A stretch of 64,000 nucleotides of DNA from Eledone cirrhosa (lineage: Eukaryota). The position numbers and the translations under genes were made by a program. The notes under the pieces are model-generated. The model was not told the DNA's origin. It did no database searches and was given only the letters and a program-made list of their open reading frames with translations. Location: assembly GCA_964016885.1 (NCBI GenBank), contig OZ024755.1, positions 15,996,001 through 16,060,000 of the forward strand, read 5' to 3'. This document shows positions 7,074 through 51,566 of the stretch, one piece after another (within the stretch, counting starts at the first letter, position 1; the number at the start of each line of letters is the position of its first letter).

Positions 7074-7266
7074 CAATGGTGTTCGATTTGAGCTGCTGCT
7101 CAACAGCATCATAATGAGCTGCAAATTTGTTTTGGATGCTGCCAATTTTTAACTCCTCTTCAATTTTTTTCTTCTTTGCTTCCAGCTCTTGGTGCTCTTT
7201 CTGGCGTTTCTTCATCAGACTAAAAGCTCTCCCAGCTTCGGAGGCAGCTCCTTTGTAGTGAGCCAT
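7074..7266 (-). CDS. FAM50A: FAM50A/XAP5 homolog, coding exon 1 (ATG at 7266)
   Basis: [21 protein letters not shown]...[19 protein letters not shown] then |gtaagt donor at 7073. Exon lengths 193+140+185+511=1029 nt = 342 aa plus stop. Strong polypyrimidine acceptor at 7308 implies an upstream non-coding exon. Confidence 0.97.
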
Positions 7267-7910: not shown

Positions 7911-8020
7911 ACTTACACGAAGAGTTACGGTGGTGAATACGCATGCGTAAGAACGGTGTAAATAAAAAGAAAGTTCCTAAACATAAAATCAGTTTATGCA
8001 CCTTTCCGCATTATCGAGGT
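7911..8020 (-). promoter_or_regulatory. Candidate FAM50 promoter / non-coding first exon
   Basis: Minus-strand GTAAGT donor at 7916-7911; palindrome tacgcatgcgta (7938-7949) resembles an NRF1/Ewg site; local CpG enrichment. Confidence 0.5.
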
Positions 8021-8164
8021 ATTGATGTAGAGACAAAATTTTACCTTTAACCTCATGTACTTATAAATATTTACGTGTACATAATTGTTTCTACTTTTGG
8101 CACATGGCCAGCAATTATCCTGGTGTATTACTGGTACTTTATTTTATCAACCCCGTGACGTTTG

Positions 8165-8400
8165 GTGAGGTTATAGCGAGGACAACTTTTCCTTTCATCC
8201 TTTCGGGTCGATAAAAAAAGTACCAGTCAAATACTGGAGTCGATTTTTTTTATATTTCTTTCTATCCTTCTATGGAAAAGAAATCTGCTCTGTTCAGACC
8301 TGGAGAGGGATGGGCTCCGTCAGGCTATGAAATGCCTAAGAAACGCCGTATTCCACCACGGCGCCCTTGCGGCTCCATCAGGAGTTATGGGACCATACCA
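8165..8400 (+). mobile_element. SINE with Meta-like central domain and a distinctive 3' tail (ggaagaaatctgct...cagacctggagagg...gggctcc)
   Basis: Same body and tail recur at ~41873-42210, ~59995-60315 and ~61975-62215. Confidence 0.65.
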
Positions 8401-9099
8401 TAGTCAGTTATGTCAACCGCGTCATTACCCTGCTGGTATACATGACTGATATTTTATTTTCCTCGATTATTACTGCACATGATTTCAAAGTAAATCATGC
8501 AACCAATAAAAACATGTAAGATGCACACAGGACTGTGGAGTAGCTATTGTAAACTAGATGCACACAGTAAAGATAAGATTTAATGTTACAATAATAAAGA
8601 AACTGTAAAGGAAGGAGTGAACAACCGAGCCAACACCAGAGCAAAAGACAGCAACGTCGCGAGGACAACCGGGCAACCTCTCTAATGACTTTTGAGGCAA
8701 GCCAGCACACTCGCAGCGTTGCCTCGGGTGATGGCGAGGCTGATGCGCTGGAAACCAAGCGCCCTCGCGAGAATCGCCACTTACCTCTATTAGGCGAGCC
8801 GCCTTGAAGAGAGGAACCTCGCAGTCAGCGACCCGACTTCCCCAAACCTCTCGAAAACAGGCTGAAAAATGTAGCTCGCCGACAGATCACAGGTAAGATT
8901 AAAACCTAAACTTCGTAAAAGTATTCGTGTTGTTGTTGCAGACTATGGAAACATATGTGTGTGTATATATATATATAAATATACCTGTAAACACATGTAT
9001 ATATTTATGTATTCATGTATGTATATAAATTATTGTCTTATTTACCAAAATATTTTTCTAATATCGTCTTTATCTGGTTTCCTTCCATATAATGTTACA

Positions 9100-11035
9100 A
9101 TAATAGGAAGAGGCGAAATAGATCGTCCAACCACCTCAAACAGGTGACAAAAAAGGCAGTGCTTCAATTTGAGCAGCGCATAGCAACCAGCCCTGACAGT
9201 AAGGTGTTCTGGAAGTATGTTCACTCAAAGCAGAGGCCTCACTCTCCAGTTGGTCCTCTTCGCAATCCCCACACAAGCCAGGTTACTGACGACCCCAAGG
9301 AATGCGCAGAGCTCATTGCTGAATGCTATGCAGGCATTTTCACTATTGAAGACCAGAGTGTACCATCTCCACCACCTATGACACCGGACTCTATTACAAC
9401 CATGGAATTTACACCTGCAATGCTGCGACGTCACCTAAAAAATAAACTCAACCATGCCTCTCCTGGTCTTGATGGTGTTACGTACCTGCTTCTTAAACGT
9501 GGTGGGTACTTCCTTCTACACCAGTTATCACGCTTCTTCCAATTCTGTCTGAACAACAGTGCTACTCCAGAACAGTAGAAAACTTCCAGTGTCATTCCTC
9601 TGTTCAAAAAGGGTGACCGCACATCACCTGTGAACTATCGTCCAGTCAGTCTTACTAGTTGCATCGCCAAACTGATGGAATCCTGTGTCAGAGAAACACT
9701 TTGGAACTTCTGGAGCTCTCACAGTCTTATCCGGCCCTCGCAATTTGGATTTATCCCCAACTCCAGCTGCTGTGATCAACTTATAGAGTTTCTTGAGGAC
9801 ATCACCCGGATCACTGATGGCGGCTCATGAGTGAATGTTGTTTACCTTGACTTTGCGAAGGCCTTCAATTCTGTGCCACACAAAAGGCTTATGGCAAAAC
9901 TCTCTGCAATGGGTGTGAAGGATGATCTTTTTAACTGGTTGAAGTCCTTCATTCTCAGTCGAAGAGAGGTAGTCACGGTTCTGGGACAGCATTCCTCACC
10001 ATATGAGATGTCATCTGGTGTACCACAGGGATCTGTTCTTGAACCCCTTTTGTTTGTGGCATATATTAATGACATAGATGCCAACTTAAGGAATGCCACA
10101 GTACTAAAGTACGCAGACGACATCAAGCTGTACCTTGAGATAAAAAGGACAGATCCTGAACACTATAGATCTTGCTTGCAGTCTGACCTGGACACAATGC
10201 AACAGTGGATCTCAGACTGGCAACTCAAGCTAGCTGTGGACAAGTGCACCACCATGCATTTTGGGAGTAAAAACCCAGCGTCCACATACTCCCTCCACAG
10301 CACTAATATCAAGAAGTCTTCCTGTGAACGTGACCTGGGCATTACGGTCAGCAGCGATTTGCGTTGGACGAGGCACATCTCTAAAATTGTCAAGAGGGCC
10401 GCCGAGGGTGTCTTAGCATCACTCAGCAAGACCTTTGTCAGCCGCTCTCCAGATATCTATTTAAGGCTGTATACAGCTATGGTGCGACCAAACTTAGAAT
10501 TTGCATCACCAGTCTGGAACCCCTATCTTGCTCAGGACATTGACCGCCTGGAAACTGTTCAGAGACGTGCAACCAAGCAAATACCCTCCATCAGGCATCT
10601 ACCATACTCTGAGCGCCTTGCTTCCCTGGGTATGGATTCATTGAAGCTCCGACGCCTGGCAACTGACTTGGTAAACACCCACAAAATTGTTAACCATGTT
10701 GCCAACAACAACCCTGAGTACCTTTTCGATTTCCATGTGTCTAACACACGTGGACATGCCCACAAAGTAAGAAAACAGCACAGTTCCCATGACTTTCGGA
10801 AACATTTTTTCACGCTCAGAGTTGCTGAAGCATGGAACAAACTACCTGCATCAGTTGTTAGCTGTCGAGACACTGCATCCTTTAAGGCCTCCATGCTTCC
10901 CGAGATCCGCCAACAGAACAGCTAACACATACACACATGTACTTCCCTGACATTTGTGTATTATTCTATGTACTATATTGACGAGTTGTAGTGCACCTGA
11001 GCACTTTACACAATAATTTCATTATTATTATTATA
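9100..11035 (+). mobile_element. 5'-truncated CR1-clade LINE (reverse transcriptase ORF2 with two in-frame stops)
   Basis: One frame from ~9100 to 10925: KVFWKYVHSK, SPGLDG, NYRPVSLTS, QFGF, YLDFAKAFNSVPH, SGVPQGSVL, KYADDIK, FFTLRVAEAWNKLP; stops at 9576 (TAG) and 9828 (TGA) where Trp is expected; 3' UTR ends tgtagtgcacctgagcac...aataatttc(ATT)n. Confidence 0.95.
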
Positions 11036-14000
11036 ATTCTCAACACACTCCCCTCCATTTACTTGCTGTCTTACTCTCTATATATATATTTCTTTCCCCT
11101 CTAACACAGTCTCTCCTTTCTCTCTCTCTCTTTGCCAGCCCCCTTCTCTCACACAGCCCACCGTTCTCTGCCCCTTCTTCTTTCTTTCTCCCTTATGTCA
11201 TATATTCTCTCTATCTGTTTCTCTCTTTATCTCTCTCTGCATCGCCTTTGTATTTTTCAGCCTTTCTCTCCTTCTCACTCCTGTCTCTCTCTGTCTCTAC
11301 ATATGACCCACTCTCTCTCACTACCATCAACCAAACATAAATAGTTACATCTTCTCCGGTCTCTCCTGGAAGAAAATTGCGGGTGTGCAAAGTCAGATTA
11401 ATTTTAGAGTCAAGGGGGAAATAATTCTAAAAGCATACCCCCTCCTACCACCATACTATCTTCTTTCTGTCTCTCTCACCAAGCAAACATAAACACTCTC
11501 ACCTCACCTCCAAAATAAATATGTAAACATACAGAAAGACACCAAGTCCCTACGTGGGCGCTCTACCAGGGAAAAATATCTCCAATAAAATTAATTAATT
11601 AATAAAATCCGATAATAAAACATCAATGACCCACTCTTACCACCACATTAACTCTTTTGACTCTCTCTCACTATCACCAACCAAACATAAACAGTGTCAC
11701 CTCTTCTCTTCCCAGTTCTCTCCTGGAGGAAAATTGCGTGTGTGCAAAACCAGATTAATTTTACAGTCCAGGGGGAAGTAATTCTGTAAGCATAGCCCCT
11801 CCTACCACCATACTATCTTCTTTCTGTCTCTCTCACCAACCCAACATAAACACTCTTACCTCTCCTCATCTCCGAAATGTAAACAAACGAAAAGACACCA
11901 TGTCCACACATTGGCACTCTACCAGGTAAAAATATCTCGAATAAAATAAATAAATAAAACCCGACAATAAAACATCACTGTATCGCCCATAATTACATTC
12001 ACAACTTTATAATAAAACATTGATAAGGAAAATAACAAAGTAAAGGTAAGACTAAAACCTAAACTTCGTGAAATTCCGGTAAAAGTATTCGTGTTGTTAT
12101 GGCAGACGATATTAACGTGTGTGTATATATATATAAATATACCTGTAAACATACGTATATATTTATGTATTTATGCTTGTATATAAATTATTGTCTTATT
12201 TACAGAAATATTTTTCTAATATCGTGTTTAATACTTCATATTGTGTCGTCTGGTGTTTCTTCCATTTAATAACGACATAACTCTCAACTGACTCCCCTTC
12301 GTTTACTTACTGTCTCCCCCTCTCTCTCTCTCTCTCCTTTTGCCACCCCTTCTCTCAGACAACCTTTTCTCTCTCTCTCTCTATCTCTCTATCTTTTCCC
12401 TCGCTTCTTTATCTCTTTCTCTCTGTTGCTGTTTCTCTCATATCGTCACTCTCTGTCTCTCTATTTTTGTTTCTCCCTCTTTTTTACTCTACACTTTCTC
12501 CTCCCCTCTTTTTCTCTCCACTTTCTCCGTCCCTCTTCTTCTCTCATTCTTTCTCTTTTTTCTCCGCCCCAACGGCCTCTCTCTCTGCCTTACCTGCTAT
12601 TCACTTAACATCCCTCTCTCTCTACCTCCTCTGTATTTCTCTGCCTTTCTCTCCGTCTCGCTCCCTTCTCTCTCAGTCTTTAGATCTGACCCACTCCAAC
12701 CACCACATTAACTCTTTTCACTCTCTCTCACTATCACCAACCAAAGTTCTCTCCTGGAAGAAAATTGCGGGTGTGCAAAATCAGATTAATTTTACAGTCC
12801 AGGGGGAAGTAATTCTGTAAGCATATTCCCTCCTACCACCATACTATCTTCTTTCTGTCTCTCTCATCAACCCAACATAAACACTCTTACCGCACCTCCT
12901 CTCCGAAATGTAAACAAACGAAAAGACACCATGTCCACACATTGGCACTCTACCAGGTAAAAATATCTCGAATAAAATAAATAAATAAAACCCGACAATA
13001 AAACATCACTGTATCGTCCATAATTGCATTCACAACTTTATAATAAAACATTGATAAAGAAAATTAACAAAGTAAAGGTAAGATTAAAACCTAAACTTCG
13101 TGAAATTCCGGTAAAAGTATTCCTGTTGTTATGGCAGACGATAGTAACGTGTGTGTATATATATAAATATACCTGTAAATATATGTATATATTTATGCAT
13201 GTATATAAAACTGTCTTATTTACAAAAATATTTTTCTAATATTGTATTTAATACTTCATATTGTGTCTTTGGGTTTTCTTCCATTTAATAACGACATAAC
13301 TCTCAACTGACTCCGCTTCGTTTACTTACTGTCTCTCTCTCAAATCCCCACCCCCTCACAAAGCCTTTCCTTTCTCTCTCTTTTTGCCATCCCCTTCTCT
13401 CACACAACCTTTTCTCTTTCTGCTCTATCTTTTCACCTCCCTTCTTTATCTCTTTCTCTCTGTCGAGTTTCCCTCGTATAGTCACTCTCTGTCTCTCTTT
13501 CTTTTAGTTTCTCCCTCTTTTTTACTCTGCAATTTCTCCTTCCCTCATTTTCTCTCTTTCTCTCTCTTTTTTTCTCCGCCACAACGGTCTCTCTCTCTGC
13601 CTTACCTCCTATTCACTTAACCTCCCTCTCTATCTAGCTCCTCTGTATTTCTCTGCCTTTCTCTCCATCTCGCTCCCTTCTCTCTCAGTCTTTAGATCTG
13701 ACCCACTCCTACCACTACATTAACTCTTTTCACTCTCTCTCTCACTATCACCAACCAAACATAAACAGTGTCACCTCTTCTCTTCCCAGTTCTCTCCTGG
13801 AAGAAAATTGCGGGTGTGCAAAATCAGATTAATTTTGCAGTCCAGGGGGAAGTAATTCTGTAAGCATATTCCCTCCTACCACCATACTATCTTCTTTCTG
13901 TCTCTCTCACCAACCCAACATAAACTCTCCTACCTCTCCTCCTCTCCGAAATGTAAACAAACGAAAAGACACCATGACCACACATTGGCACTCTACCAGG

Positions 14001-17000
14001 TAAAAATATCTCGAATAAAATAAATAAATAAAACCCGACAATAAAACATCACTGTATCGTCCATAATTGCATTCACAACTTTATAATAAAACATTGATAA
14101 GGAAAATTAACAAAGTAAAGGTAAGATTAAAACCTAAACTTCGTGAAATTCCGGTAAAAGTATTCGTGTTGTTATGGCAGACGATAGTAATGTGTGTGTA
14201 TATATAAATATACCTGTAAACATATGTATATATTTATGCATGTATATAAAACTGTCTTATTTATAAAAATATTTTTCTAATATTGTGTTTAATACTTCAT
14301 ATTGTGTCTTTGGGTTTTCTTCCATTTAATAACGACATAACTCTCAACTGTCTCCGCCTCAATTATTTACTGTCTCTCTCTCAAATCCCCACCCCCGCAC
14401 AAAGCCTTTCCTTACTCTCTCTTTTTGCCATCCCCTTCTCTCACACAACCTTTTCTCTTTTTGTCTCTATCTTTTCCCTCCCCTTCTTTATCTCTTTCTC
14501 TCTGTCGAGTTTCCCTCATATAGTCACTTTCTGTCTCTCTCTTTCTTTTAGTTTCTCCCTCTTTTTTACTCTGCAATTTCTCCTTCCCTCATTTTCTCTC
14601 TTTCTTTCTCTTTTTTCTCCGCCATAACGGTCTCTCTCTCTGCCTTACCTCCTATTCACTTAACCTCCCTCTCCCTCTAGCTCCTCTGTATTTCTCTGCC
14701 TTTCTCTCCGTCTCGCTCCCTTCTCTCTCAGTCTTTAGATCTGACCCACTCCTACCACCACATTAACTCTTTTCACTCTCTCTCACTATCACCAACCAAA
14801 CATAAACAGTGTCACCTCTTCTCTTCCCAGTTCACTCCTGGAAGAAAATTGCGGGTGTGCAAAATCAGATTATTTTACAGTCCAGGGGGAAGTAATTCTG
14901 TAAGCATATTCCCTCCTACCACCATACTATCTTCTTTCTGTCTCTCTCACCAACCCAACATAAACTCTCCTACCTCTCCTCATCTCCGAAATGTAAACAA
15001 ACGAAAAGACACCATCTCCACACATTGGCACTCTACCAGGTAAAAATATCTCGAATAAAATAAATAAATAAATAAAACCTGACAATAAAACATCACTGTA
15101 TCGTCCATAATTGCATTCACAACTATATAATAAAACATTGATAAAGAAAATTAACAAAGTAAAGGTAAGATTAAAACCTAAACTTCGTGAAATTCCGGTA
15201 AAAGTATTCCTGTTGTTATGGCAGACGATAGTAACGTGTGTGTATATATATAAATATACCTGTAAATATATGTATATATTTATGCATGTATATAAAACTG
15301 TCTTATTTACAAAAATATTTTTCTAATATTGTATTTAATACTTCATATTGTGTCTTTGGGTTTTCTTCCATTTAATAACGACATAACTCTCAACTGACTC
15401 CGCTTCGTTTACTTACTGTCTCTCTCTCAAATCCCCACCCCCTCACAAAGCCTTTCCTTTCTCTCTCTTTTTGCCATCCCCTTCTCTCACACAACCTTTT
15501 CTCTTTCTGCTCTATCTTTTCACCTCCCTTCTTTATCTCTTTCTCTCTGTCGAGTTTCCCTCGTATAGTCACTCTCTGTCTCTCTTTCTTTTAGTTTCTC
15601 CCTCTTTTTTACTCTGCAATTTCTCCTTCCCTCATTTTCTCTCTTTCTTTCTCTTTTTTTCTCCGCCACAACGGTCTCTCTCTCTGCCTTACCTCCTATT
15701 CCCTTAACCTCCCTCTCTCTCTGCCTTACCTCCTATTCACTTCACCTCCCTCTCTATCTAGCTCCTCTGTATTTCTCTGCCTTTCTCTCCATCTCGCTCC
15801 CTTCTCTCTCAGTCTTTAGATCTGACCCACTCCTACCACCACATTAACTCTTTTCACTCTCTCTCACTATCACCAACCAAACATAAACAGTGTCACCTCT
15901 TCTCTTCCCAGTTCTCTCCTGGAAGAAAATTGCGGGTGTGCAAAATCAGATTAATTTTACAGTCCAGGGAGAAGTAATTCTGTAAGCATATTCCCTCCTA
16001 CCGCCATACTATCTTCTTTCTGTCTCTCTCACCAACCCAACATAAACTCTCCTACCTCTCCTCCTCTCCGAAATGTAAACAAACGAAAAGACACCATGAC
16101 CACACATTGGCACTCTACCAGGTAAAAATATCTCGAATAAAATAAATAAATAAAACCCGACAATAAAACATCACTGTATCGTCCATAATTGCATTCACAA
16201 CTTTATAATAAAACATTGATAAGGAAAATTAACAAAATAAAGGTAAGATTAAAACCTAAACTTCGTGAAATTCCGGTAAAAGTATTCGTGTTGTTATAGC
16301 AGACGATAGTAACGTGTGTGTATATATAAATATACCTGTAAATATATGTATATATTTATGCATGTATATAAAAGTGTCTTATTTTCAAAAATTATTTTTC
16401 TAATATTGTGTTTAATACTTCATATTGTGTCGTCTGGTTTTCTTCCATTTAATAACGACATAACTCTCAACTGACTCCGCTTCGTTTATTTACTGTCTCT
16501 CTCCCTACCCTACCCCTACCCCCTCACTCACAAAGCCTTTCCTTTCTCTCTCTTTTTGCCATCTCCTTATCTTAAACAACCTTTTCTCTTTCTGTCTCTA
16601 TCTTTTCCCCTCCCTTCTTTATCTCTTTCTCTCTGTCGAGTTTCCTCATATAGTCACTCTCTGTCTCTCTCTTTCTTTTAATTTCTCCCTCTTTTTTTAC
16701 TCTGCACTTTCTCCTTCCCTCATTTTCTCTCATTCTTTCTCTTTTTTTCTCTGCCACAACGGTCTCTCTCTCTGCCTTACCTCCTATTCACTTAACCTCC
16801 CTCTCCCTCTAGCTCCTCTGTATTTCTCTGCCTTTCTCTCCGTCTCGCTCCCTTCTCTCTCAGTCTTTAGATCTGACCCACTCCTACCACCACATTAACT
16901 CTTTTCACTCTCTCTCACTATCACCAACCAAACATAAACAGTGTCACCTCTTCTCTTCCCAGTTCTCTCCTGGGAGAAAATTGCGGGTGTGCAAAATCAG

Positions 17001-20000
17001 ATTAATTTTACAGTCCAGGGGGAAGTAATTCTGTAAGCATATTCCCTCCTACTACCATACTATCTTCTTTCTGTCTCTCTCACCAACCCAACATGAACTC
17101 TCTTACTTTGTGAAATTCCGGTAACAGTATTCGTGTTGTTATGGCAGACGATAGTAACGTGTGTGTATATATAAATATTTATGCATGTATATAAAACTGT
17201 CTTATTTACAAAAATATTTTTCTAATATTGTGTTTAATATTAGAAAAATATTTTTGTATATAAGACAGTTTTATATACATGCATAAATATATACATATGT
17301 TTACAGGTATATTTATATATATACACACACGTTACTATCGTCTGCCATAACAACACGAATACTTTTACCGGAATTTCACGAAGTTTAGGTTTTAATCTTA
17401 CCTTTACTTTGTTAATTTTCCTCATCAATGTTTTATTATAAAGTTGTGAATGCAATTATGGACGATACAGTGATGTTTTATTGTGGGGTTTTATTTATTT
17501 ATTTATTTTATTCGAGATATTTTTACCTGGTAGAGTGCCAATGTGTGGACATGGTGTCTTTTCGTTTGTTTACATTTCGGAGAGGAGGAGAGGTAAGAGA
17601 GTTTATGTTGGGTTGGTGAGAGAGACAGAAAGAAGATAGTATGGTGGTAGGAGGGAATATGCTTACAGAATTACTTCCCCCTGGACTGTAAAATTAATCT
17701 GATTTTGCACACCCGCAATTTTCTTCCAGGAGAGAACTGGGAAGAGAAGAGGTGACACTGTTTACGTATGGTTGGTGATAGTGAGAGAGAGTGAAAAGAG
17801 TTAATGTGGTGGTAGGAGTGGGTCAGATCTAAAGACAGAGAGAGAAGGGAGCGAGACGGAGAGAAAGGCAGAGGAGCTAGAGGGAGAGGGAGGTTAAGTG
17901 AATATGAGGTAAGGCAGAGAGAGAGACCGTTGTGGCGGAGAAAAAAAGAGAAAGAAAGAGAGAAAATGAGGGAAGGAGAAATTGCAGGGTAAAAAAGAGG
18001 GAGAAACTAAAAGAAAGAGAGAGACAGAGAGTGACTATATGAGGGAAACTCGACAGAGAGAAAGAGATAAAGAAGAGAGGGGAAAAGATAGAGACAGAAA
18101 GAGAAAGGGTTCTGTGAGAGAAGGGGATGACAAAAAGAGAGAGTAAGGAAAGGCTTTGTGAGAGGGTGGGGATTTGAGAGAGAGAGTGTAAGTAGTTGAA
18201 GCGGAGTCAGTTGAGAGTTATGTCGTTATTAAATGGAAGAAAACCCAAAGACACAATATGAAGTATTAAACACAATATTAGAAAAATATTTTTGTAAATA
18301 AGACAGTTTTATATACATGCATAAATATATACATATATTTACAGGTATATTTATATATACACACGTTACTATCGTCTGCCATAATAACACGAATACTTTT
18401 ACCGGAATTTCACGAAGTTTAGGTTTTAATCTTACCTTTACTTTGTTAATTTTCCTTATCAATGTTTTATTATAAAGTTGTGAATGCAATTATGGACGAT
18501 ACAGTGATGTTTTATTGTGGGGTTTTATTTATTTATTTATTTTATTCGAGATATTTTTACCTGGTAGAGTGCCAATGTGTGGACATGGTGTCTTTTCGTT
18601 TATTTACATTTCGGAGAGGAGGAGAGGTAAGAGAGTTTATGTTGGGTTGGTGAAAGAGACAGAAAGAAGATAGTATGGTGGTAGGAGGGAATATGCTTAC
18701 AGAATTACTTCCCCCTGGACTGTAAAATTAATCTGATTTTGCACACCCGCAATCTTCTTCCAGGAGAGAACTGGGAAGAGAAGAGGTGACACTGTTTATG
18801 TTTGGTTGGTGATAGTGAGAGAGAGTGAAAAGAGTTAGTGTGGTGGTAGGAGTGGGTCAGATCTAAAGACTGAGAGAGAAGGGAGAGAGACGGAGAGAAA
18901 GGCAGAGAAATACAGAGGAGCTAGATAGAGAGAGAGGTTATGTATTTCTCTGCCTTTCTCTCCGTCTCGCTCCCTTCTCTCTCAGTCTTTAAATCTCACT
19001 CCTTACCACCACATTAACTCTTTTCACTCTCTCTCACTATCACCAACCAAACATAAACACTATCACCTCTTCTCTTCCCAGTTCTCTCCTGGAAGAAAAT
19101 TGCGGGTGTGCAAAATCAGATTAATTTTACAGTCCAGGGGGAAGTAATTCTGTAAGCATATTCTCTCCTACCACCATACTATCTTCTTTCTGTCTCTCTC
19201 ACCAACCCAACATAAACTCTCCTACCTCTCCTCCTCTCCGAAATGTAAACAAACGAAAAGACACCATGACCACACATTGGCACTCTACCAGGTAAAAATA
19301 TCTCGAATAAAATAAATAAATAAAACCCGACAATAAAACATCACTGTATCGTCCATAATTGCATTCACAACTTTATAATAAAACATTGATAAGGAAAATT
19401 AACAAAGTAAAGGTAAGATTAAAACCTAAACTTCGTGAAATTCCGGTAAAAGTATTCGTGTTGTTATGGCAGACGATAGTAACGTGTGTGTATATATAAA
19501 TATACCTGTAAACATATGTATATATTTATGCATGTATATAAAACTGTCTTATTTACAAAAATATTTTTCTAATATTGTGTTTAATACTTCATATTGTGTC
19601 TTTGGGTTTTCTTCCATTTAATAACGACATAACTCTCAACTGACTCCGCCTCAATTATTTACTGTCTCTCTCTCAAATCCCCACCCCCGCACAAAGCCTT
19701 TCCTTACTCTCTCTTTTTGCCATCCCCTTCTCTCACACAACCTTTTCTCTTTTTGTCTCTATCTTTTCCCTCCCCTTCTTTATCTCTTTCTCTCTGTCCA
19801 GTTTCCCTCATATAGTCACTTTCTGTCTCTCTCTTTCTTTTAGTTTCTCCCTCTTTTTTACTCTGCAATTTCTCCTTCCCTCATTTTCTCTCATTCTTTC
19901 TCTTTTTTTCTCTGCCACAACGGTCTCTCTCTCTGCCTTACCTCCTATTCACTTAACCTCCCTCTCCCTCTAGCTCCTCTGCCTTTCTCTCCATCTCGCT

Positions 20001-23000
20001 CCCTTCTCTCTCAGTCTTTAGATCTGACCCACTCCTACCACCACATTAACTCTTTTCACTCTCTCTCACTATCACCAACCAAACATAAACACTGTCACCT
20101 CTTCTCTTCCCAGTTCTCTCCTGGAAGAAAATTGCGGGTGTGCAAAATCAGATTAATTTTACAGTCCAGGGGGAAGTAATTCTGTAAGCATATTCCCTCC
20201 TACCACCATACTATCTTCTTTCTGTCTCTCTCACCAACCCAACATAAACTCTCCTACCTCTCCTCCTCTCCGAAATGTAAACAAACGAAAAGACACCATG
20301 ACCACACATTGGCACTCTACCAGGTAAAAATATCTCGAATAAAATAAATAAATAAAACCCGACAATAAAACATCACTGTATCGTCCATAATTGCATTCAC
20401 AACTTTATAATAAAACATTGATAAGGAAAATTAACAAAGTAAAGGTAAGATTAAAACCTAAACTTCGTGAAATTCCGGTAAAAGTATTCGTGTTGTTATA
20501 GCAGACGATAGTAACGTGTGTGTATATATAAATATACCTGTAAATATATGTATATATTTATGCATGTATATAAAACTGTCTTATTTTCAAAAATATTTTT
20601 CTAATATTGTGTTTAATACTTCATATTGTGTCGTTTGGTTTTCTTCCATTTAATAACGACATAACTCTTAACTGACTCCGCTTCGTTTATTTACTGTCTC
20701 CCCCCCCCCCCCCTCACTCACAAAGCCTTTCCTTTCTCTCTCTTTTTGCCATCTCCTTATCTTAAACAACCTTTTCTCTTTTTGTCTCTATCTTTTCCCC
20801 TCCCTTCTTTATCTCTTTCTCTCTGTCGAGTTTCCTCATATAGTCACTCTCTGTCTCTCTCTTTCTTTTAATTTCTCCCTCTTTTTTTACTCTGCACTTT
20901 CTCCTTCCCTCATTTTCTCTCATTCTTTCTCTTTTTTTCTCTGCCACAACGGTCTCTCTCTCTGCCTTACCTCCTATTCACTTAACCTCCCTCTCCCTCT
21001 AGCTCCTCTGTATTTCTCTGCCTTTCTCTCCGTCTCGCTCCCTTCTCTCTCAGTCTTTAGATCTGACCCACTCCTACCACCACATTAACTCTTTTCACTC
21101 TCTCTCACTATCACCAACCAAACATAAACACAGAGTTTATGTTGGGTTGGTGAGAGAGACAGAAAGAAGATAGTATGGTGGTAGGAGGGAATATGCTTAC
21201 AGAATTACTTCCCCCTAGACTGTAAAATTAATCTGATTTTGCACACCCGCAATTTTCTTCCAGGAGAGAACTGGGAAGAGAAGAAGTGACACTGTTTATG
21301 TATGGTTGGTGATAGTGAGAGAGAGTGAAAAGAGTTAATGTGGTGGTAGGAGTGGGTCAGATCTAAAGACTGAGAGAAGGGAGCGAGACGGAGAGAAAGG
21401 CAGAGGAGCTAGAGGGAGAGGGAGGTTAAGTGAATAGGAGGTAAGGCAGAGAGAGAGACCGTTGTGGCGGAGAAAAAAAGAGAAAGAAAGAGAGAAAATG
21501 AGGGAAGGAGAAATTGCAGAGTAAAAAAGAGGGAGAAACTAAAAGAAAGAGAGTGACTATTTAAGGAAACTCGACAGAGAGAAAGAGATAAAGAAGAGAG
21601 GGGAAAAGATAGAGACAGAAAGAGAAAGGGTTCTGTGAGAGAAGGGGATGATAAAAAGAGAGAGTAAGGAAAGGCTTTGTGAGGGGGTGGGGATTTGAGA
21701 GAGAGACAGTAAGTAGTTGAAGCGGAGTCAGTTGAGAGTTATGTCGTTATTAAATGGAAGAAAACCCAAAGACACAATATGAAGTATTAAACACAATATT
21801 AGAAAAATATTTTTGTAAATAAGACACTTTTATATACATGCATAAATATATACATATATTTACAGGTATATTTATATATACACACACGTTACTATCGTCT
21901 GCCATAACAACACGAATACTTTTACCGGAATTTCACGAAGTTTAGGTTTTAATCTTACCTTTACTTTGTTAATTTTCCTTATCAATGTTTTATTATAAAG
22001 TTGTGAATGCAATTATGGACGATACAGTGATGTTTTATTGTGGGGTTTTATTTATTTATTTATTTTATTCGAAATATTTTTACCTGGTAGAGTGCCAATG
22101 TGTGGACATGGTGTCTTTTCGTTTATTTACATTTCGGAGAGGAGGAGAGGTAAGAGAGTTTATGTTGGGTTGGTGAGAGAGACAGAAAGAAGATAGTATG
22201 GTGGTAGGAGGGAATATGCTTACTGAATTACTTCCCCCTGGACTGTAAAATTAATCTGATTTTGCACACCCGCAATCTTCTTCCAGGAGAGAACTGGGAA
22301 GAGAAGAGGTGATAGTGTTTATGTTTGGTTGGTGATAGTGAGAGAGAGTGAAAAGAGTTAATGTGGTGGTAGGAGTGGGTCAGATCTAAAGACTGAGAGA
22401 GAAGGGAGCGAGACGGAGAGAAAGGCAGAGAAATACAGAGGAGCTAGATAGAGAGGGAGGTTATGTATTTCTCTGCCTTTCTCTCCGTCTCGCTCCCTTC
22501 TCTTTCAGTCTTTAGATCTGACCCACTCCTACCACCACATTAACTCTCTCTCACTCTCTCTCACTATCACCAACCAAACATAAACAGTGTCAGCTCTTCT
22601 CTTCCCAGTTCTCTCCTGGAAAAAAATTGCGTGTGTGCAAAATCAGATTAATTTTACAGTCCAGGGGGAAGTGATTCTGTAAGCATATTCCCTCCTACCA
22701 CCATACTATCTTCTTTCTGTCTCTCTCACCAACCCAACATAAACTCTCTTACCTCTCCTCCTCTCCGAAATGTAAACAAACGAAAAGACACCATGTCCAC
22801 ACATTGTCACTCTACCAGGTAAAAATATCTCGAATAAAATAAATAAAACCCGACAATAAAACATCACTGTATCGTCCATAATTACATTCACAACTTTATA
22901 ATAAAACATTGATAAGGAAAATTAACAAAATAAAGGTAAGATTAAAACCTAAACTTCGTGAAATTCCGGTAAAAGTATTCGTGTTGTTATGGCAGACGAT

Positions 23001-24360
23001 AGTAACGTGTGTGTATATATATAAATATACCTGTAAATATATGTATATATTTATGCATGTATATAAAATTGTCTTATTTACAAAAATATTTTTCTAATAT
23101 TGTGTTTAATACTTCATGTTGTGTCGTCTGGTTTTCTTCCATTTAATAACGACATAACTCTCAACTGACTCCGCTTCGTTTATTTACTGTCTCTCTCTCC
23201 CCCTCACAAAGCCTTTCCTTACTCTCTCTTTTTGCAATCCCCTTCTCTCATACAACTTTTTCTCTTTCTGTCTCTATCTTTTCCCCTCCCTTCTTTATCT
23301 CTTTCTCTCTGTCGAGTTTCCCTCATATAATCACTCTCTGTCTCTCTCTCTCTTTTAGTTTCTCCTTTTTTACTCTGCACCTTCTCCTTTCCTCATTTTC
23401 TCTCATTCTTTCTCTTTTTTTCTCCGCCACAAGGGTCTCTCTCTCTCTCTCTCTCTCTGCCTTACCTCCTATTCCCTTAACCTCCCTCTCTCTCTGCCTT
23501 ACCTCCTATTTACTTAACCTCCCTCTCTATCTAGCTCCTCTGTATTTCTCTGCCTTTCTCTCCGTCTCACTCCCTTCTCTCTCAGTCTTTAGATCTGACC
23601 CACTCCTACCACCACATTAACTCTTTTCACTCTCTCTCACTATCACCAACCAAACATAAACAGTGTCAGCTCTTCTCTTCCCAGTTCTCTCCTGGAAGAA
23701 AATTGCGTGTGTGCAAAATCAGATTAATTTTACTGTCCAGGGGGAAGTGATTCTGTAAGCATATTCCCTCCTACCACCATACTATCTTCTTTCTGTCTCT
23801 CTCATCAACCCAACATAAACACTCTTACCTCACCTCCTCTCCTAAATGTAAACAAACGAAAAGACACCATGTCCACACATTGGCACTCTACCAGGTAAAA
23901 ATATCCCGAACAACATTAATAAAACCCTACAATAAAACACCACTGTATCGTCCATAATTACATTCACAACTTTATAATAAAACATTGATAAGGAAAAATA
24001 ACAAAGTAAAGGTAAGATTAGAACCTAAACTTCGTGAAATTCCGGTAAAAGTATTTCTATTGCTTTTGCAGACCATACTTTCATGTGTGTGTGAAAAATA
24101 TTTTTGTAAATAAGACAATAGTTTATATATAATAAATATACCTGTAAACATATGTATGTATATAAACTATTGTCTTATTTACAAAAATATTTTCTGTAAT
24201 ATCGTGTTTAATATTTCATATTGTTATCGTCTGGTTTCCTTCTATTTAATCACTACATAACTCTCAACATGTACTTTCCCTCTCTCTATCTATCTAACTA
24301 TCCCTCTCCCTTGCTTCTTTGTTGCTGTTTCCCTCCTATAGTCACCCTCTCTCTCTCTCT
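11034..24360. repeat. Macrosatellite-like array of a ~1.03-1.08 kb unit (about 12 unit equivalents) with alternating orientation blocks
   Basis: Marker aaggtaagattaaaacctaaacttcgtgaaattccgg recurs near 12045, 13075, 14118, 15165, 16240, 19410, 20445, 22935, 24010 (+) and reverse-complemented near 17385, 18420, 21940. Blocks: + 11034-17235, - 17236-18940, + 18941-21130, - 21131-22463, + 22464-24360. A partial diverged unit lies at 8891-9100 before the LINE. Confidence 0.97.
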
Positions 24361-24399
24361 CATTCCAGGGGCTGTAGAACTGGGTACCAGTACCCCTAA

Positions 24400-24530
24400 T
24401 AATATTTTTTGCAATCTACGCAAGTCTCCTGCATACAGCGCCCAGGTTTCACTTCTATGCAACATTGCTGTTTGTATGCATGCATCATACTGTGTGTGTG
24501 TGTGTGCCCCCAGCATGGCCTCAGTCAGAT
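24400..24530 (-). mobile_element. Short RTE LINE fragment
   Basis: YDACIQTAMLHRSETWALYAGDLRRL; a related plus-strand fragment (MKGKLYDAFILTTMLHSSESWALCAEDLRRLE) lies at ~52180-52276. Confidence 0.65.
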
Positions 24531-24603
24531 AGCTGGAACAGGTAAAAGATTGAAATATATATATATATATATATATATGAGAAAACTCATCGCTAGAACA
24601 GCT

Positions 24604-24810
24604 GAAATGTGTAATTTTGAAAGAGGTCACCAAGCAGACACTGGTGACCTCCCCTTGACTAGGTTTTCTTGAAAGTCTGCACACATTCATTTCTATTGTA
24701 ATGACCAATTATTTTTCTCTCAGTTCATCCGAACTTCGTCATTTATTTTACTTGTGTTGCACATCCTGTAGATCATGTTCGATTAGTTGACATGTACACA
24801 CTGGAATATA
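24604..24810 (+). repeat. ~205 bp dispersed repeat, copy 1, with 10-bp-stem hairpin
   Basis: Closely similar to 28184-28390; contains gaggtcacca-N9-tggtgacctc; bounded by (TA)n. Confidence 0.85.
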
Positions 24811-24839
24811 TATACATACATATATATATATATATACGC

Positions 24840-27830
24840 TAACTCTGCTAGTTGTAGGCTGCACATCAACATGAGATAGTTTTCTCCACAAAGTTTGATC
24901 ACCAACAGCAGAGTTTAAAGAGCAAAGGTCAAGTCCAGTCCATAAGTTAACATTATCAAGCCATCGTTTGGCGGCCGACCTCTGCCTCTCTTACCAGCCA
25001 ACTTTCCTTCTAGGCATAACTTACTCACACCACGAGTTGATCTTTTGATATGGCTATACAGTTTAAGCACTCTTTACCTGACAACTGATGTGGTTGGTCT
25101 AAGCCTAGTGATGTTGAGCAGCCCACTGATACAGCTATGGTTGCTGAGCCACTTGCCAGTTGTAAGTCTCATGATGTGATTCTGGAATGTAGAGAGCTTC
25201 TGAAGTGACCTTGTCATCCAATTAACACAGTCAAGACCATATAACACAACTGGTAGGATGTAAATATCTAAGATCTTAGCCTTCAAATGATAAGAAACTT
25301 CTTTTGATGTTAGTACTTCCTTGTTCCTAGAGTGATGCGATACAGCACAGTGACTATTCCATTGCTGTTTGATGATAGTTTGTGACCGAGATATACAAAC
25401 TCTGTATCTTGCACAATTTTCTGGTTGTAGATTGAGTTGGAGATTGGCATTGTTTTTATCAGTTATCATACACTTTGTTTTGAAGATGTTGATGTGTGAG
25501 CCAGCCTCTAGTAAATGTTTGGCCAGTACATTCAGAAAGTTTTGCAGATCAATTCTAGAGTAACTCATGATAGCCAGATCGTCTGCATAGCTAAGGTTTG
25601 ATAGAATTTTACCTCCTAGTTGATAGCCGGAGGAGCATTCCTCTTCAGTTTGGTAGATAAGTGCAGCTATAACTGTGCTGATAGTACATTCCCCTGCTTA
25701 ACTCCCTTCAAGATGTCGTGTAGTTCCCAAATCTGTTTTGATATATGCTGTTGAGTTGGTGTAAGTTTCTTTCAGTGAGTTGATGTATTTCTTATTAATT
25801 GAGGTTTTGTTAAAGAGTTGCCACAAGCTGGGTAGTTTCACATTGTCAAAAGCTTTTGTGAAATCAATGAAGGTGATGTGCACAGGGTTGTTGAATGCTA
25901 TTGATTTCTCAATGATTTGTTCAATAGCTAGGATCTGCCCAATGGTGCCTCTTCCAGGTTGATACGCAGCTTGTATTTCAGGAAATGAGGCGTAAAGTCT
26001 GACTTCACTCATGTTGCAATGATACTCATGAAAAGCTTGTAAACATGACTCAATAGGCTCATAGGACGATAGTTTCCATAATCAAGTCTGCTACTTTTTT
26101 TTAAGAGTACAACTATCAATGCTTTCTTGAACATGTCTGGGCTTTTTCCTGTAGTGATAATACGGTTAAAAAGATGTTGAAGTGCTTTGATAATTGGTTC
26201 ACCTCCAGCTTTGATGAATTCTGAGTATATGTTGTCGAGTCCAGGGCTTTTTCTTCACTTCAAATTTTTGTTGGCGTGAGATATCTCGCTAGTTAAGATA
26301 GATGGAATGGCATCTGATGTCGAATCATGAATAGTTGTTGGCTCTGAGTTGCTGAAGTACAGTTCTTCATAGAATTTAGCCCAGTGTTCAAGGATAGTAT
26401 TGTTTGAATCTTTAATGCCCCAGCTAAGATTTCTTGGTTTAGTCTTTAGTTTCTTCAGAACAGCATGATATAACCTGTGGGGTGGTAAGTTATTCATCTC
26501 TTCAATGTTGTTGTACATTTGCTCAAGTTTGTCTGATTTAACGAGTTTTTTTTATTCAGCCTTTGCTATACTATATTGGGCTGATGTGTGGCCATATTCT
26601 CTTCAGATATTTCTTTCTTTCTTTGTTGTGACATCCACTGTGGGATGGAAAGGTTTTCCTTAGGTAAAATCTCTTCAGATACCTCTTTTATGCCTCTGCA
26701 GATAGTATCATAAATCTTGTCGAGGTCTTCATCAGATTGCAAAGCTGAAAAGCGGTTTTGCAACTCGTTAGAATCGGCTTGCTGTTTCGTTACACGAGAG
26801 TTTGTCAAAGTTAACTTTCAATGGTATTTTATTTCTTTGTGGCCAAAAAAGTTGATATGAAATCTTGAACGCACCATTCGATGGTCAGATATATCATGAG
26901 TGTTAAGAGCAGTGCTGTCTAATATGCTTAGTCTTGTTGAAGATTTTCTTGCTACTATAAAGTTTATTTGATTCTTAGTTATATTGTCTAGTGATATCCA
27001 AGTGAACAGGTTTTCTTTTGAAATATTGTGTTGGTGATCTGCATATTATTCTTCATACAAAATTGGGCTAGAAGCTCGCCTCTCGAGTTAAATGTAACTG
27101 TGGTATATTTCCCAATACTTGATGGGAATGATTGATTACAGTTAAAGTAATCCATCAGAAAGAGGTGATCTCTCTTTGGTGTCTTATCTATAATGGTCTG
27201 TATGTTGTCATATAACTCATTGATTTCTTCTTCTGGATGTGTAGATGTGGGGAAAATAGTACTTGATAAGTATGAGTTTACAAAACTACTTTTCAAGCTC
27301 AGAACAGCTTGTCTCTCTGATATAGATTGATAGTTGTGTACTAATGATGCGCACATTTTGTTCATCAAGAAACCCACTCCATTCATGATATGAGTTTCAT
27401 TGCTTGATAGATAAATATAGTGTCTGGTATCTTGGTGTATCTTTATTTTGTTTTCGTTTGATTTAGTCTCTGATAATCCAATAATATCCCAGTTTACTTT
27501 CTCAAGTTCATACATCATTGTCTCAAGAGAGTTGGTATTACGGTCATTGATGGTATGTGTGTTTTATGTGCAGATATTAACAGTCTTTTTCTTTGTCTGG
27601 GTTTTTCTTCTATTCATATGAATCAAACTAGTCTGAGGTTGCTGGTGTGATCCCCTAGTCATAGCTGTTACATCATTCTGGGGCTGCTGGTGTGCCCTCC
27701 TGTTCACTCTTCGGGGGTCCAGAGGTGGCCTTCTCTGTACAACTAATCTCTGAAGTGACTTTTTCATGTTAATTTTATGAGCCTACTCTTCTATGCTGGC
27801 TCAAGATATGCTGGAAGAGAGCATTTGTAA
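24840..27830 (-). mobile_element. Near full-length but heavily decayed RTE-clade LINE (AP endonuclease + reverse transcriptase)
   Basis: Minus-strand fragments: ELEKVNWDIIGLSETK and NGVGFL (endonuclease), KSPGLDNI, YRPMSL, QAAYQPGRGT, FIDFTKAFDNV, NLSYADDLAI (~25575-25600), ILPVVLYGLDC, EGKLAGKRGRGRP; many stops and frameshifts. Confidence 0.92.
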
Positions 27831-28183
27831 GGTAACACAAAAATTAGTGTTTTTATTGTGGCACCATCACTAGGAGGGACTCCACCCACCCTCATCAAGA
27901 GAGGCTATCCCACACCAGATCTCAACTTAGTGCCTCAACCTTTGCAGATGTACATAGATTAAAAAGTAGATTTAGAAAAGAAAAAGTGTAAAAATATAAA
28001 AGGTTATAAAGTAAAAAAGTTAAACAAAGATGATGATGATATATATATATATTGAATCAGGGGCTAAAAATACTCTATGAAAAGCATGTTTTGTGAGAGG
28101 TGGGAATGAAATGTGTTTTTGAACATGTCGAAAAAAATCTATATGAAAAGTGTTTTGTGAAAGGTCGAAAAAAAATTCTATAT

Positions 28184-49785: not shown

Positions 49786-50605
49786 TGTATCATTTGATAT
49801 TTAATATACTATTATATCATCTCTACTGCATGTCTTGCTCAAACAGAACTGTTTCTGACTAGGTTTCTATGGCTGGATGCCCTTCCTAATGCTAACCAGA
49901 TTTACAGTGTGGGCTGGGTGCATTTGTTGTGACCTACACGACCACTTTACAATGTATGCTGGGTGCTTTTTGTCGTGATACCTACACGACCACATTACAA
50001 TGTGAGCTGGATGCTTTTTTGTTGTGATACCAACACATACAATATATATATACACGATGATGAAATATATATAATGTGGAGGCTAGTGGTAAGGGTGTTG
50101 GACTTACGATCATAATGTCGTGGGTTCGATTCCTGGGTTGCGTGTTGTGTTCTTGAGCAAAACACTTCATTTTACGCTGCTCCAGTATACTCAGCTGAAA
50201 ATGAGTAGCAGCAATAGCTGAGGGTTTAGCCCTGCGATGAACTGACGTCCTGTCCAGGGGAGAGTCTTGTATTATCAGTCGCTTCATGCCATGAAACCAG
50301 GATAAGCACCGGCCAAATGAGCCTTCTGGCTTAAGGCAGACTTTAGACTTTTATGTATTATATATAGTTAAACAAATAAAGCAAAACAAATACAGGGATG
50401 CAAAAATACCAAGTCTTATTAGGATCATGCTTAGGAGGAAGCAGAGGAGGGTTTGGCGCCTTCAGACTGAAGTCCTTTGTCAGGAAATGGAGAGTTCAGA
50501 TAAAGAGAGAACAGGAACATACATGAAAATTTGGAAAAGATTGTTAGGGTGGGGCTGGTATATATATAAGTTTGATTTGAAACAGCGAGCAGAGCTTGAA
50601 ATTTA

Positions 50606-50792
50606 GTAGAAACAGAAGCTTTCACCATATTTTTTACTAAAGAAATTTTAGCCTGATAGTATGGCTTAAGATCTTCTAAAAAATGGAAAAGGAGTCAATA
50701 CTCATCCTTTTACATTATTTAGAGGGTTTTAAGCCCCACTATCAGGCTAAATTTTCTTTAGATAAAAATATGGTGAAAGCTTCTGTTTCTAC
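50606..50792. repeat. Imperfect palindrome, ~88 bp arms
   Basis: gtagaaacagaagctttcaccatattttt... pairs with ...aaaaatatggtgaaagcttctgtttctac. Confidence 0.9.
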
Positions 50793-51103
50793 CATATTTT
50801 ACTTCACTAAGAGGTGACATTTATGTGACTAATTCTGTTTCATTCAACAATGAAATCGACAGATTTAATTGTGGTATCCTTCTATTCTTTAACAGAACAC
50901 AATTCTACTATATATATATTAACCGCGACTTCTCAAGCGTGAATCTAATAAGACTTTGTGTTTTTGCATCGCTGTGTTTGTCTTGTTCATTCTTGAACTA
51001 TATATGTATGTATTTATTTATTCATTTGTGTTCCAGCCAAGGGGCTGAGGCCATGGTGGGGCGTATATATATGTGTATATACATATATATATATTTACAC
51101 ATA

Positions 51104-51150
<47 letters not shown>

Positions 51151-51158
<8 letters not shown>

Positions 51159-51483
51159 AGATCAAAAGATGGTTAAAGGAGTTCCATGTATTTTATTATG
51201 CGCATTTCAAAAACAAACATCATCATGCAATAATATTTGTGTTTTCATCAGATAAAACAGGAGAACATGATATGAAGGCTAAAAAACACTTGTGGATAGT
51301 GCAGTTTTAAATCAACATGTTAATTTAAAACTGCACTATCCACAAGTGTTTTTAGCCTTCATATCATATTCTCCTGTTTTATCTGATGAAAACACAAATA
51401 TTATTGCATGATGATGTTTGTTTTTGAAATGCGCATAATAAAATACATGGAACTCCTTTAACCATCTTTTGATCTTATATTAT
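51151..51483. repeat. Near-perfect 333 bp palindrome
   Basis: Centre aacatgtt at 51314-51321; arms of ~165 bp differ at only about three positions; abuts a long (TA)n. Confidence 0.97.
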
Positions 51484-51566
51484 GTATACTCCAGTCCTAC
51501 AAACTGTAGAGTGCTTCTTATCCGATATCTGCATTGCTTTATTGTACTACAATAAAACTCACCTCC

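What the first reader, a model, noticed from the sequence alone, without database searches (positions are those of the whole stretch)
11034..24360. 1-kb satellite array that reverses orientation four times, forming kilobase-scale fold-backs
Seen: the array runs +,-,+,-,+ with switches at ~17235, 18940, 21130 and 22463, each a head-to-head or tail-to-tail fold-back with a loop of only ~5-26 nt, so arms of 1.3-1.7 kb could pair. All three inverted units share a private variant (aaaaccccacaat versus aaaacccgacaat in most plus units), which argues against a simple read chimera. Established: long near-perfect palindromes are usually unstable, and replication template switching at short inverted repeats (ODIRA/FoSTeS-type) yields alternating-orientation amplicons. 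Inference: an array grown by fold-back amplification rather than only unequal exchange; if transcribed it would make very long dsRNA hairpins, a potential endo-siRNA/piRNA source or ADAR substrate, ~3 kb from the FAM50 promoter.
Basis: partly seen in the sequence, partly recalled or inferred. Interest (0 to 1): 0.75.

Follow-up and report, generated by a model that had tools for sequence, protein, structure and literature searches.

The report
Helitron-born array, one fold-back copied twice
A 13-kb run of 1-kb repeats beside the FAM50 gene does flip direction four times, but its repeat is the inner part of a rolling-circle jumping-gene (Helitron) family, and the four flips likely trace to one old fold-back copying error that was likely duplicated once and then trimmed, so this is mostly ordinary repeat turnover.

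Summary
The +,-,+,-,+ array is in the assembly, but the four switches are not four fold-backs. Stretch 18989-22466 is a direct copy of 13691-18943 (47 of 3474 bases differ). J4 therefore repeats J2, and J3 is J1 with a 656-nt centre deleted, leaving a 162-nt spacer. Arms are 2.8-4.3% mismatched with bulges, not near-perfect. Fold-back added about 1.6 of about 12.7 units; the rest is likely unequal exchange. The unit is the interior of a dispersed non-autonomous Helitron family: A|TC 5' ends in 4 of 4 unit-linked copies, and one shared CTAG|T 3' end in 12 of 23 loci. This window has lost both ends. Twelve of 26 other arrays also switch strand, and small fold-backs are common genome-wide. Read support for the junctions was inconclusive, and the hairpin-RNA idea is untested. 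The scan has noted fold-back junctions copied in tandem in other satellites of this genome, but not this repeat. Verdict: real, a new member of known kinds, modest interest.

The parts
7075..7263 (-). First coding exon of FAM50A (neighbour, not part of the array)
   Evidence: phmmer to 8c6j_CF, E 1.2e-15
8563..8584 (+). Short remnant of the unit (r418-440), the likely old left edge
   Evidence: sequences printed side by side; about 19 of 22 letters agree by eye
8590..8890 (-). Retroelement-like fragment interrupting the first unit; no Pfam hit in the one frame scanned; likeness to the C-terminus of CRE/RLE-type elements is recalled, not shown
8891..9100 (+). Decayed unit remnant (r429 to about r645), 78% identical to the reference unit
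9102..11032 (+). LINE inserted into the first unit at about r645, ending in an (ATT)n tail
   Evidence: RVT_1 E 1.6e-26, 85-94% matches in other loci
11033..17239 (+). Block A: decayed edge (about 15% diverged), five full units and a last unit with 205-nt and about 21-nt deletions next to J1
17230..17235 (.). J1: true fold-back, 6-nt loop on a pre-existing 4-bp inverted repeat; one hit in the assembly
17236..18940 (-). Block B: original inverted duplication, about 1.6 units
18915..18940 (.). J2: fold-back with 26-nt spacer and at most 2 bp of homology
18941..21131 (+). Block C: copies of block-A units (C1 close to A3 at 1.7%, C2 close to A5 at 1.0%)
21131..21292 (.). J3: J1 after loss of 656 nt (matching 16940-17595), with a 162-nt spacer; ends lie in register on paralogous sub-repeats r16-95 and r183-254
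21132..22463 (-). Block D: copy of block B (1.7% over 1333 nt)
22438..22463 (.). J4: same junction as J2
   Evidence: 2 hits in the assembly, both here
22464..24360 (+). Block E: original right end, last unit 8-10% diverged
24093..24193 (.). Small inverted duplication inside the last unit (35-bp perfect arms, 29-nt spacer)
13691..18943 (+). Cassette 1 (A3-A6, J1, B, J2)
18989..22466 (+). Cassette 2: direct copy of cassette 1 minus one unit (14684-15774) and minus the J1 centre
   Evidence: 47 of 3474 aligned bases differ

Best explanation
The array is the likely orphaned interior of a non-autonomous Helitron that expanded in place, likely gained one fold-back inverted duplication by replication template switching, and was then likely duplicated once by unequal exchange, with the tight palindrome centre likely deleted afterwards. 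Shown: (1) the unit lies between TC and CTAG ends in other loci; (2) this window's units form their own clade; (3) cassette 2 is a direct copy of cassette 1; (4) J4 equals J2, and J3 aligns to J1 with its centre missing. Inferred: (5) a Helitron copy inserted here and lost both ends to later insertions; (6) J1 was primed by a nascent or resected strand folding back on the 4-bp repeat, and J2 returned synthesis to the forward template; (7) the duplication was an unequal crossover between plus units; (8) both copies of the 6-nt-loop palindrome decayed by deletion near the tip while the 26-nt-spacer junction survived, as expected if short-loop palindromes extrude and are cut. No function is implied.
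For: Family and ends: 511 first-look candidates, 20 scored; 1516 candidates, 40 scored; one search gives the shared layout; 12 of 23 loci with the AT-rich tail plus RTE piece end at the same CTAG|T; 1 ends CTTG|T, 2 end 5-8 nt short, 1 reads on as RTE, 7 are cut earlier at scattered places. Control: 23 of 26 motif copies without the tail read on as RTE, and 4 of 4 with the tail stop (these 4 are among the 12); 4 of 4 unit-linked 5' ends are A|TC, and L075 and L047 are whole TC...CTAG elements between A and T with no target duplication. In-place growth: the 12 window cores form one clade (100/99) at 2.9% mean divergence, 12.1% from the nearest other locus, edges are 6-15% diverged. Order of events: arms 2.8-4.3% against cassette copies 1.35%, with all four unit pairs at 1.0-1.7%. 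J1 and J2 occur nowhere else in the assembly.
Against: Neither Helitron end is in the window, so the origin of this copy rests on homology. The 3' hairpin is weak (-3.4 to -4.6 kcal/mol) and is also present in the parent RTE; the T after CTAG could come from the RTE too. No RepHel locus shares an end at BLAST level (0 of 20). J2 has at most 2 bp of homology and needs one later substitution. Unit mosaics (C1 and D2 share two variants that A3 and B2 lack) need extra gene conversion. No listed read or contig bridges a junction.
Confidence: 0.74

Rival explanations
1. The inversion was made during Helitron transposition (fold-back while the single-stranded intermediate was copied), and local gene conversion later made it look young.
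For: 8 of 9 other arrays with at least 3 kb of unit sequence switch strand, and 6 of 6 single-switch arrays converge in the same polarity (two-sided p 0.03). Four elements (C9a, L060, C24b, L059) carry the inversion nested between correctly oriented end modules. In C24b, C7 and C9b the arm divergence (5.9-9.1% minimum) approaches the distance to other loci (8.0-10.8%).
Against: Here the inverted cores are 1.3-2.8% from plus cores but 12% from any other locus, and younger than the array's own edges. Junction positions differ between loci, so none was spread by transposition. Fold-backs are common outside the family (12 in 499 kb).
Confidence: 0.1
2. Cassette 2 is a false tandem duplication: two haplotypes of the locus placed one after the other by the assembler. 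Only one inversion per chromosome would then be real.
For: 1.35% divergence is in the range that allelic difference could reach (own knowledge; heterozygosity was not measured). One search lists no piece bridging J3.
Against: The seam at 18941-19027 has private changes and is nearest to neither E1 nor A3. Either single haplotype would be 8-10 kb with distinct flanks, which long reads usually span (own knowledge; read type not known).
Confidence: 0.08
3. One reading: the array grew by repeated independent fold-back amplification (four ODIRA/FoSTeS events).
For: Alternating orientation; J1 lies on a short inverted repeat.
Against: J2 and J4 are one sequence. Inverted units are closer to each other (1.7-2.0%) than to the units they face (3.7-4.5%). 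Cassette 2 aligns end to end with cassette 1.
Confidence: 0.05
4. Whole structure is a read or amplification chimera.
For: Fold-back chimeras are a known artefact of amplified or palindromic reads (own knowledge).
Against: Arms differ by 2.8-4.3% with indels and private variants, while a chimera would mirror exactly. Twelve other loci of the family show switches with diverged arms.
Confidence: 0.02

Closest known systems
Canonical non-autonomous Helitrons (Helraiser/Helibat; PMC4778049, passages read)
   Same: 5'-TC and CTAG-3' ends, insertion between A and T, a 3' end likely made anew from captured flanking DNA (here an RTE LINE piece), captured host fragments inside.
   Different: Weak 3' hairpin; no matched autonomous partner found; the window's copy has lost both ends.
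Helitron/Helentron-carried tandem arrays in Pacific oyster (PMC7492417, passages; review PMC12628747, passages)
   Same: Dispersed satellite-like arrays between conserved end modules; stand-alone and one-sided forms; the review mentions central arrays 'oriented in different directions' at shuffled loci.
   Different: The oyster Cg_HINE arrays kept one orientation relative to their flanks 'without exception', whereas 12 of 26 arrays here switch. The unit here is about 1 kb, and the ends are TC/CTAG rather than subterminal inverted repeats.
Inverted triplications: ODIRA (PMC10766183, passages) and small inverted triplications, SIT (PMC13334657, passages)
   Same: Inverted centre between direct copies, short spacers (6 and 26 nt), a short inverted repeat at J1, and secondary deletion of one arm as reported for ODIRA.
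   Different: An origin, dogbone intermediates or a flap defect cannot be tested. J2 lacks clear homology. The inverted piece (1.7 kb) is about ten times the SIT median. The repeat of the pattern came from a later direct duplication.
Tribolium freemani macro-dyad satellites (PMC12581902, passages)
   Same: Satellite sub-arrays in opposite orientation, with truncated monomers and 9-27-nt loops at the switch.
   Different: There six junction types are conserved across chromosomes in multi-megabase centromeric regions; here junctions are private to one 13-kb array next to a gene.

Membership tests
Canonical non-autonomous Helitron (the repeat family) | 5' end TC preceded by A | tested here: met
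   4 of 4 unit-linked ends. Among 30 loci, 13 show a TC start and 11 of these follow A (7 of 9 by script, four more read by eye); 17 show none. Most of the 13 are a sister family that shares only the 5' region.
Canonical non-autonomous Helitron (the repeat family) | 3' end CTRR followed by T | tested here: met
   12 of 23 loci end at one CTAG|T; control 23 of 26 plain RTE copies read on. The T may be inherited from the RTE.
Canonical non-autonomous Helitron (the repeat family) | Hairpin about 11 nt upstream of the 3' end | tested here: inconclusive
   5-bp core stem with 12-nt loop, -3.4 to -4.6 kcal/mol, in the right place but also in the parent RTE (4 sequences folded, 2 of them family ends).
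Canonical non-autonomous Helitron (the repeat family) | No target-site duplication | tested here: met
   2 of 2 whole elements, L075 and L047.
Canonical non-autonomous Helitron (the repeat family) | Autonomous RepHel partner sharing the ends | tested here: inconclusive
   150 of 150 scored candidates pass the PF14214 cut-off. 0 of 20 fetched loci share an end by BLAST; 3 of 20 start with a similar A|TC-TATATA motif.
Canonical non-autonomous Helitron (this window's array) | Array lies between the family's ends | tested here: not met
   No match to the AT-rich tail or the unique 5' part in 1-32000 at E 1e-3. The array is an end-less remnant, assigned by unit homology only.
Helentron / HINE | Subterminal inverted repeats and 3' palindrome in two end modules | not tested
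   Not searched for; the TC/CTAG ends point to canonical Helitrons instead.
ODIRA inverted triplication (J1-B-J2) | [quoted passage not shown] | tested here: inconclusive
   J1 yes: 4 bp with 6-nt loop, 2.8% of positions. J2 at most 2 bp, which 57.5% of positions offer.
ODIRA inverted triplication (J1-B-J2) | Arms of the repeats within about 100 bp | tested here: met
   6 and 26 nt; 6 nt is below the 40-80-bp optimum given in PMC10766183.
ODIRA inverted triplication (J1-B-J2) | Amplified segment holds a replication origin; hairpin-capped intermediate | not testable with these tools
   No origin map or intermediates.
Small inverted triplication (SIT) | DUP/IN/DUP with spacers of about 30 nt and junctions of about 6 bp | tested here: inconclusive
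   Spacers 6 and 26 nt fit; junction homology is 4 and at most 2 bp; 1.7 kb is far above the median but inside the stated range.
Foldback transposon (long internally repeated terminal inverted repeats) | Fixed inverted termini with target-site duplication | tested here: not met
   Ends are asymmetric TC and CTAG with no duplication; switch points differ among loci.
Retrozyme / Penelope-mobilised array | Hammerhead ribozyme in the unit | tested here: not met
   Rfam scan of 8000-26000 to E 5: 125 matches, none a hammerhead, none at gathering score.
Tribolium-type macro-dyad satellite | Junction types conserved across chromosomes | tested here: not met
   J1 1 hit (1 mismatch allowed), J2 2 hits, all in this window.
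Hairpin-RNA (endo-siRNA) locus or ADAR substrate | Transcript across a junction; small RNAs or A-to-G changes against DNA | not testable with these tools
   No RNA run was available to lay.

The most novel reading that the evidence does not exclude
This Helitron family's internal arrays fold back on themselves far more often than other DNA and in one polarity: 8 of 9 long arrays invert, each at a private junction, and 6 of 6 single-switch arrays converge the same way. That points to a strand-specific trigger, such as stalling on the 400-nt purine tract of the unit or fold-back during second-strand synthesis of the rolling-circle intermediate. A Helitron would then be a repeated source of kilobase palindromes, and of hairpin RNA where transcribed, in a cephalopod-type genome.
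Probability: 0.2. Interest if true: 0.6.

Novelty: new member of a known kind. Interest (0 to 1): 0.3.

Why it matters
For this locus, little: it is a readable case of known processes. Its value is as a clean natural record of palindrome ageing. Two copies of a 6-nt-loop palindrome both lost sequence at the tip, while two copies of a 26-nt-spacer junction stayed intact. The family gives about two dozen independent arrays in one genome on which the rate and polarity of fold-back in Helitron-carried repeats can be measured; published oyster arrays were reported to keep one orientation. If the polarity bias holds, it would say something testable about how Helitron DNA is copied.

Tried and rejected
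The laid part, 20575-21830 (three contig sets of one sample and one RAD run), lists no piece bridging J3. Its 'opposite strands' joint at 21130/21292 is the ordinary unit continuing, not J3. Depth values were too uneven between runs to count copies. Expression: no RNA holder listed, which says nothing on transcription. Rfam hits to miRNA precursors at the junctions are all under gathering score and only reflect the hairpins. Retrozyme/Penelope reading (lead from note e1-8805111): no hammerhead. Foldback transposon: considered when loci seemed to start and end at r105-117, rejected once the ends proved to be TC and CTAG. Twin-primed LINE-tail retroposition: considered because of the RTE piece, rejected because that piece stops inside the RTE at a fixed CTAG. 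Exon-intron tandem (splice-like motifs in the unit) was seen by eye and not tested; ORFs in the array are low-complexity frames. Simple inversion: excluded by junction geometry. Clustering of breakpoints along the unit was not scored, because BLAST ends pile up at the borders of the diverged CT-rich tract. Look-ups of earlier notes by place near and by sequence gave nothing relevant. No paper on this repeat appeared in the listings of searches. Papers were read as passages only; listings were otherwise seen as titles and abstract starts. Supplements were not opened; the repeat library behind PMC13282606 may already hold this family.

Full report
Observation. Self-BLAST and mapping to a reference unit (window 13691-14734, 1044 nt; positions written r1-r1044) confirm five blocks: + 11033-17239, - 17236-18943, + 18941-21130, - 21132-22466 and + 22464-24360. 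The junctions join r604 to r594 (J1), r968 to r997 (J2), r77 to r238 (J3) and r968 to r997 again (J4). The private variant is in 3 of 3 inverted units and in no plus unit. The arms align over 1466, 1665, 1151 and 1285 nt with 3.9, 2.8, 3.6 and 4.3% mismatches and 6-10 indels each; the perfect run next to the loop is 23, 28, 9 and 40 nt. They are long but imperfect palindromes. J1's left arm lacks about 205 nt some 135 nt from the tip, and J3's arms are 162 nt apart. A small extra inverted duplication lies at 24093-24193. The neighbouring gene is FAM50A.

Four switches, one inversion. Unit divergences pair A3 with C1 (1.7%), A5 with C2 (1.0%), B2 with D2 (1.7%) and B1 with D1 (1.3%), while full units facing each other across a junction differ by 3.7-4.5%. 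A global alignment shows that 18989-22466 is a direct copy of 13691-18943 with 47 differences in 3474 aligned bases (1.35%) and two large gaps: one whole unit (14684-15774) and 656 nt (16940-17595) that is the centre of the J1 palindrome. So J4 is J2 copied, and J3 is J1 with its centre removed. A 25-nt J2 pattern has 2 hits in the assembly and a 30-nt J1 pattern has 1, all in this window.

The original inversion is a fold-back. A two-break inversion at p and q gives junctions p/q and p/q; here they are about 598/594 and 968/997, so sequence was copied back on itself (inference). J1 uses TATT/AATA around a 6-nt loop already present in the unit; such a repeat closes a loop of at most 10 nt at 2.8% of positions. 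J2 offers at most 2 bp, found at 57.5% of positions, so it does not discriminate. This matches the geometry of inverted triplications. ODIRA junctions use 2-14-bp repeats and sometimes lose part of one arm later (PMC10766183, passages). SITs have spacers near 30 nt and inverted pieces from 20 bp to several kb (PMC13334657, passages). Which replication route acted cannot be told. Fold-back added about 1.6 of about 12.7 units. The edges are older (6-15% diverged) than the arms, so the inversion postdates the founding of the array.

What the unit is. The window is G000:C15:15996001-16060000. The unit matches 74-84% in arrays on many contigs (20 of 511 candidates scored). Fetched loci share one layout: a 5' part of about 830 nt with SINE-like pieces (SINE likeness recalled), the unit region, a 426-nt AT-rich tail (1516 candidates, 40 scored) and a piece of an RTE-type LINE (translated; RTE label recalled). 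Of 23 loci with tail and RTE piece (three tandem copies in C18 counted once, the duplicate pair L074/L075 once), 12 end at the same CTAG|T, 1 at CTTG|T, 2 end 5-8 nt short, 1 reads on as RTE and 7 are cut earlier at scattered places. Plain RTE copies with the same motif read on in 23 of 26 cases. Four of 4 unit-linked 5' ends are A|TC, and L075 (2389 nt) and L047 (3077 nt) are whole TC...CTAG elements between A and T without target duplication. These are the Helitron marks given for Helraiser, including 3' ends made anew by read-through (PMC4778049, passages). Weak points: the hairpin is feeble and shared with the RTE, and although RepHel is abundant (150 of 150 scored hits over cut-off), 0 of 20 fetched RepHel loci share an end by BLAST. 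The window holds neither end. Its array begins in remnants at 8563 and 8891 that are split by a retroelement-like fragment and a LINE. A tree of 101 core copies puts the 12 window copies in one clade (100/99), 12.1% from the nearest other locus against 14.5% between loci on average, so the array grew in place.

Is switching special? Among other loci with at least 900 nt of unit sequence, 12 of 26 switch strand, with 19 switches in 87.6 kb (shorter loci were dropped, L074/L075 count twice, and a few switches involve stubs of 50-60 nt). Among arrays of at least 3 kb it is 8 of 9. All 6 single-switch arrays have the same converging polarity (p 0.03; noticed after the fact). Outside the unit there are 12 fold-backs in 499 kb (simple-sequence palindromes excluded, some may be MITEs), and three more. 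The two rates are not like for like, because any switch is visible in an array, so the excess is suggestive only. Oyster Helentron arrays were reported to keep one orientation relative to their flanks (PMC7492417, passages), though a review mentions Helitron arrays oriented in different directions (PMC12628747, passages). Tribolium macro-dyads differ in having junctions conserved across chromosomes (PMC12581902, passages). That the genome is octopus-like is recalled from its repeats and is not shown by a call; PMC13282606 (passages) reports Helitron activity in Octopus vulgaris but no satellite analysis in its main text.

Artefact and RNA. Diverged arms exclude a simple read chimera. A false tandem placement of two haplotypes cannot be excluded for cassette 2, since only part of the array was laid and no listed piece bridges J3. 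The hairpin-RNA idea is untested. The sequence offers 39 AATAAA hexamers on the + strand before J1 and a cluster about 340-410 nt past J4 on the - strand, which would tend to cut such transcripts short. With about one fold-back per 40 kb elsewhere, this locus would not be an unusual dsRNA source.

Verdict. Real structure; best read as a Helitron-derived local array with one inverted duplication, one direct duplication and centre deletions (confidence 0.74). New member of known kinds; interest 0.3. The bolder reading, a Helitron family with strand-specific fold-back, has probability about 0.2.

Noticed in passing
window 51146-51488, 50599-50799, 61318-61603; G000:C5 locus C5a 15393-15732 (L056); L059 2569-2913; L035 region (C18 10818-11113): Small fold-back inverted duplications outside the family, 79-100% identical arms; about one per 40 kb of fetched DNA.
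   Followed up: partly
L041-L042 (G000:C3:139879425-139890883): Two family ends face each other 11 kb apart with identical match scores and the RTE piece flipped against the tail; a 1.9-kb AT-rich palindrome lies inside. Looks like a large inverted duplication.
   Followed up: no
L034-L035 (G000:C18:37007000-37016700): The family's 3' half plus flanking DNA is repeated three times at a 3.6-kb period, 98-99% identical, and reads past the usual CTAG end.
   Followed up: partly
G000:C20:3.5-5.2 Mb and C27:13.0-15.5 Mb: Near-identical RepHel domains recur about every 110 kb in the same orientation, suggesting a giant tandem repeat that carries a Helitron.
   Followed up: no
L168-L169 (G000:C15:14243200-14257900): A 13.6-kb sister array with a 1.56-kb dimer period and an old inverted arm (about 75% identity), 1.75 Mb from the window. 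Seven of the arrays found lie on C15.
   Followed up: partly
L077 5348, L057 671, L062 707, L109 1501: Family ends often abut what look like the 5' or 3' ends of other Helitrons (head-to-tail junctions).
   Followed up: no
family junctions, unit r328-389: Eight junction ends from five loci fall in this 60-nt AT-rich stretch, including a 6-nt-loop fold-back in C9a like J1.
   Followed up: no
window 24365-24400: A GC-rich motif with a short internal palindrome abuts the right end of the array; may be the end of another transposon that cut the array.
   Followed up: no
window 24900-27900 (-): Decayed LINE pointing toward the array; RVT_1 and endonuclease hits both under cut-off. A possible source of read-through into the array.
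   Followed up: partly
window 8582-8596 and 9092-9106: An exact 15-nt direct repeat flanks the retroelement-like fragment plus unit remnant; unexplained.
   Followed up: no
G000:C23:8428097-8429031, C26:17595690-17596092, C1077:22395-22614: The RTE motif that forms the family's 3' end is itself tandemly repeated at 99-127-nt periods.
   Followed up: no
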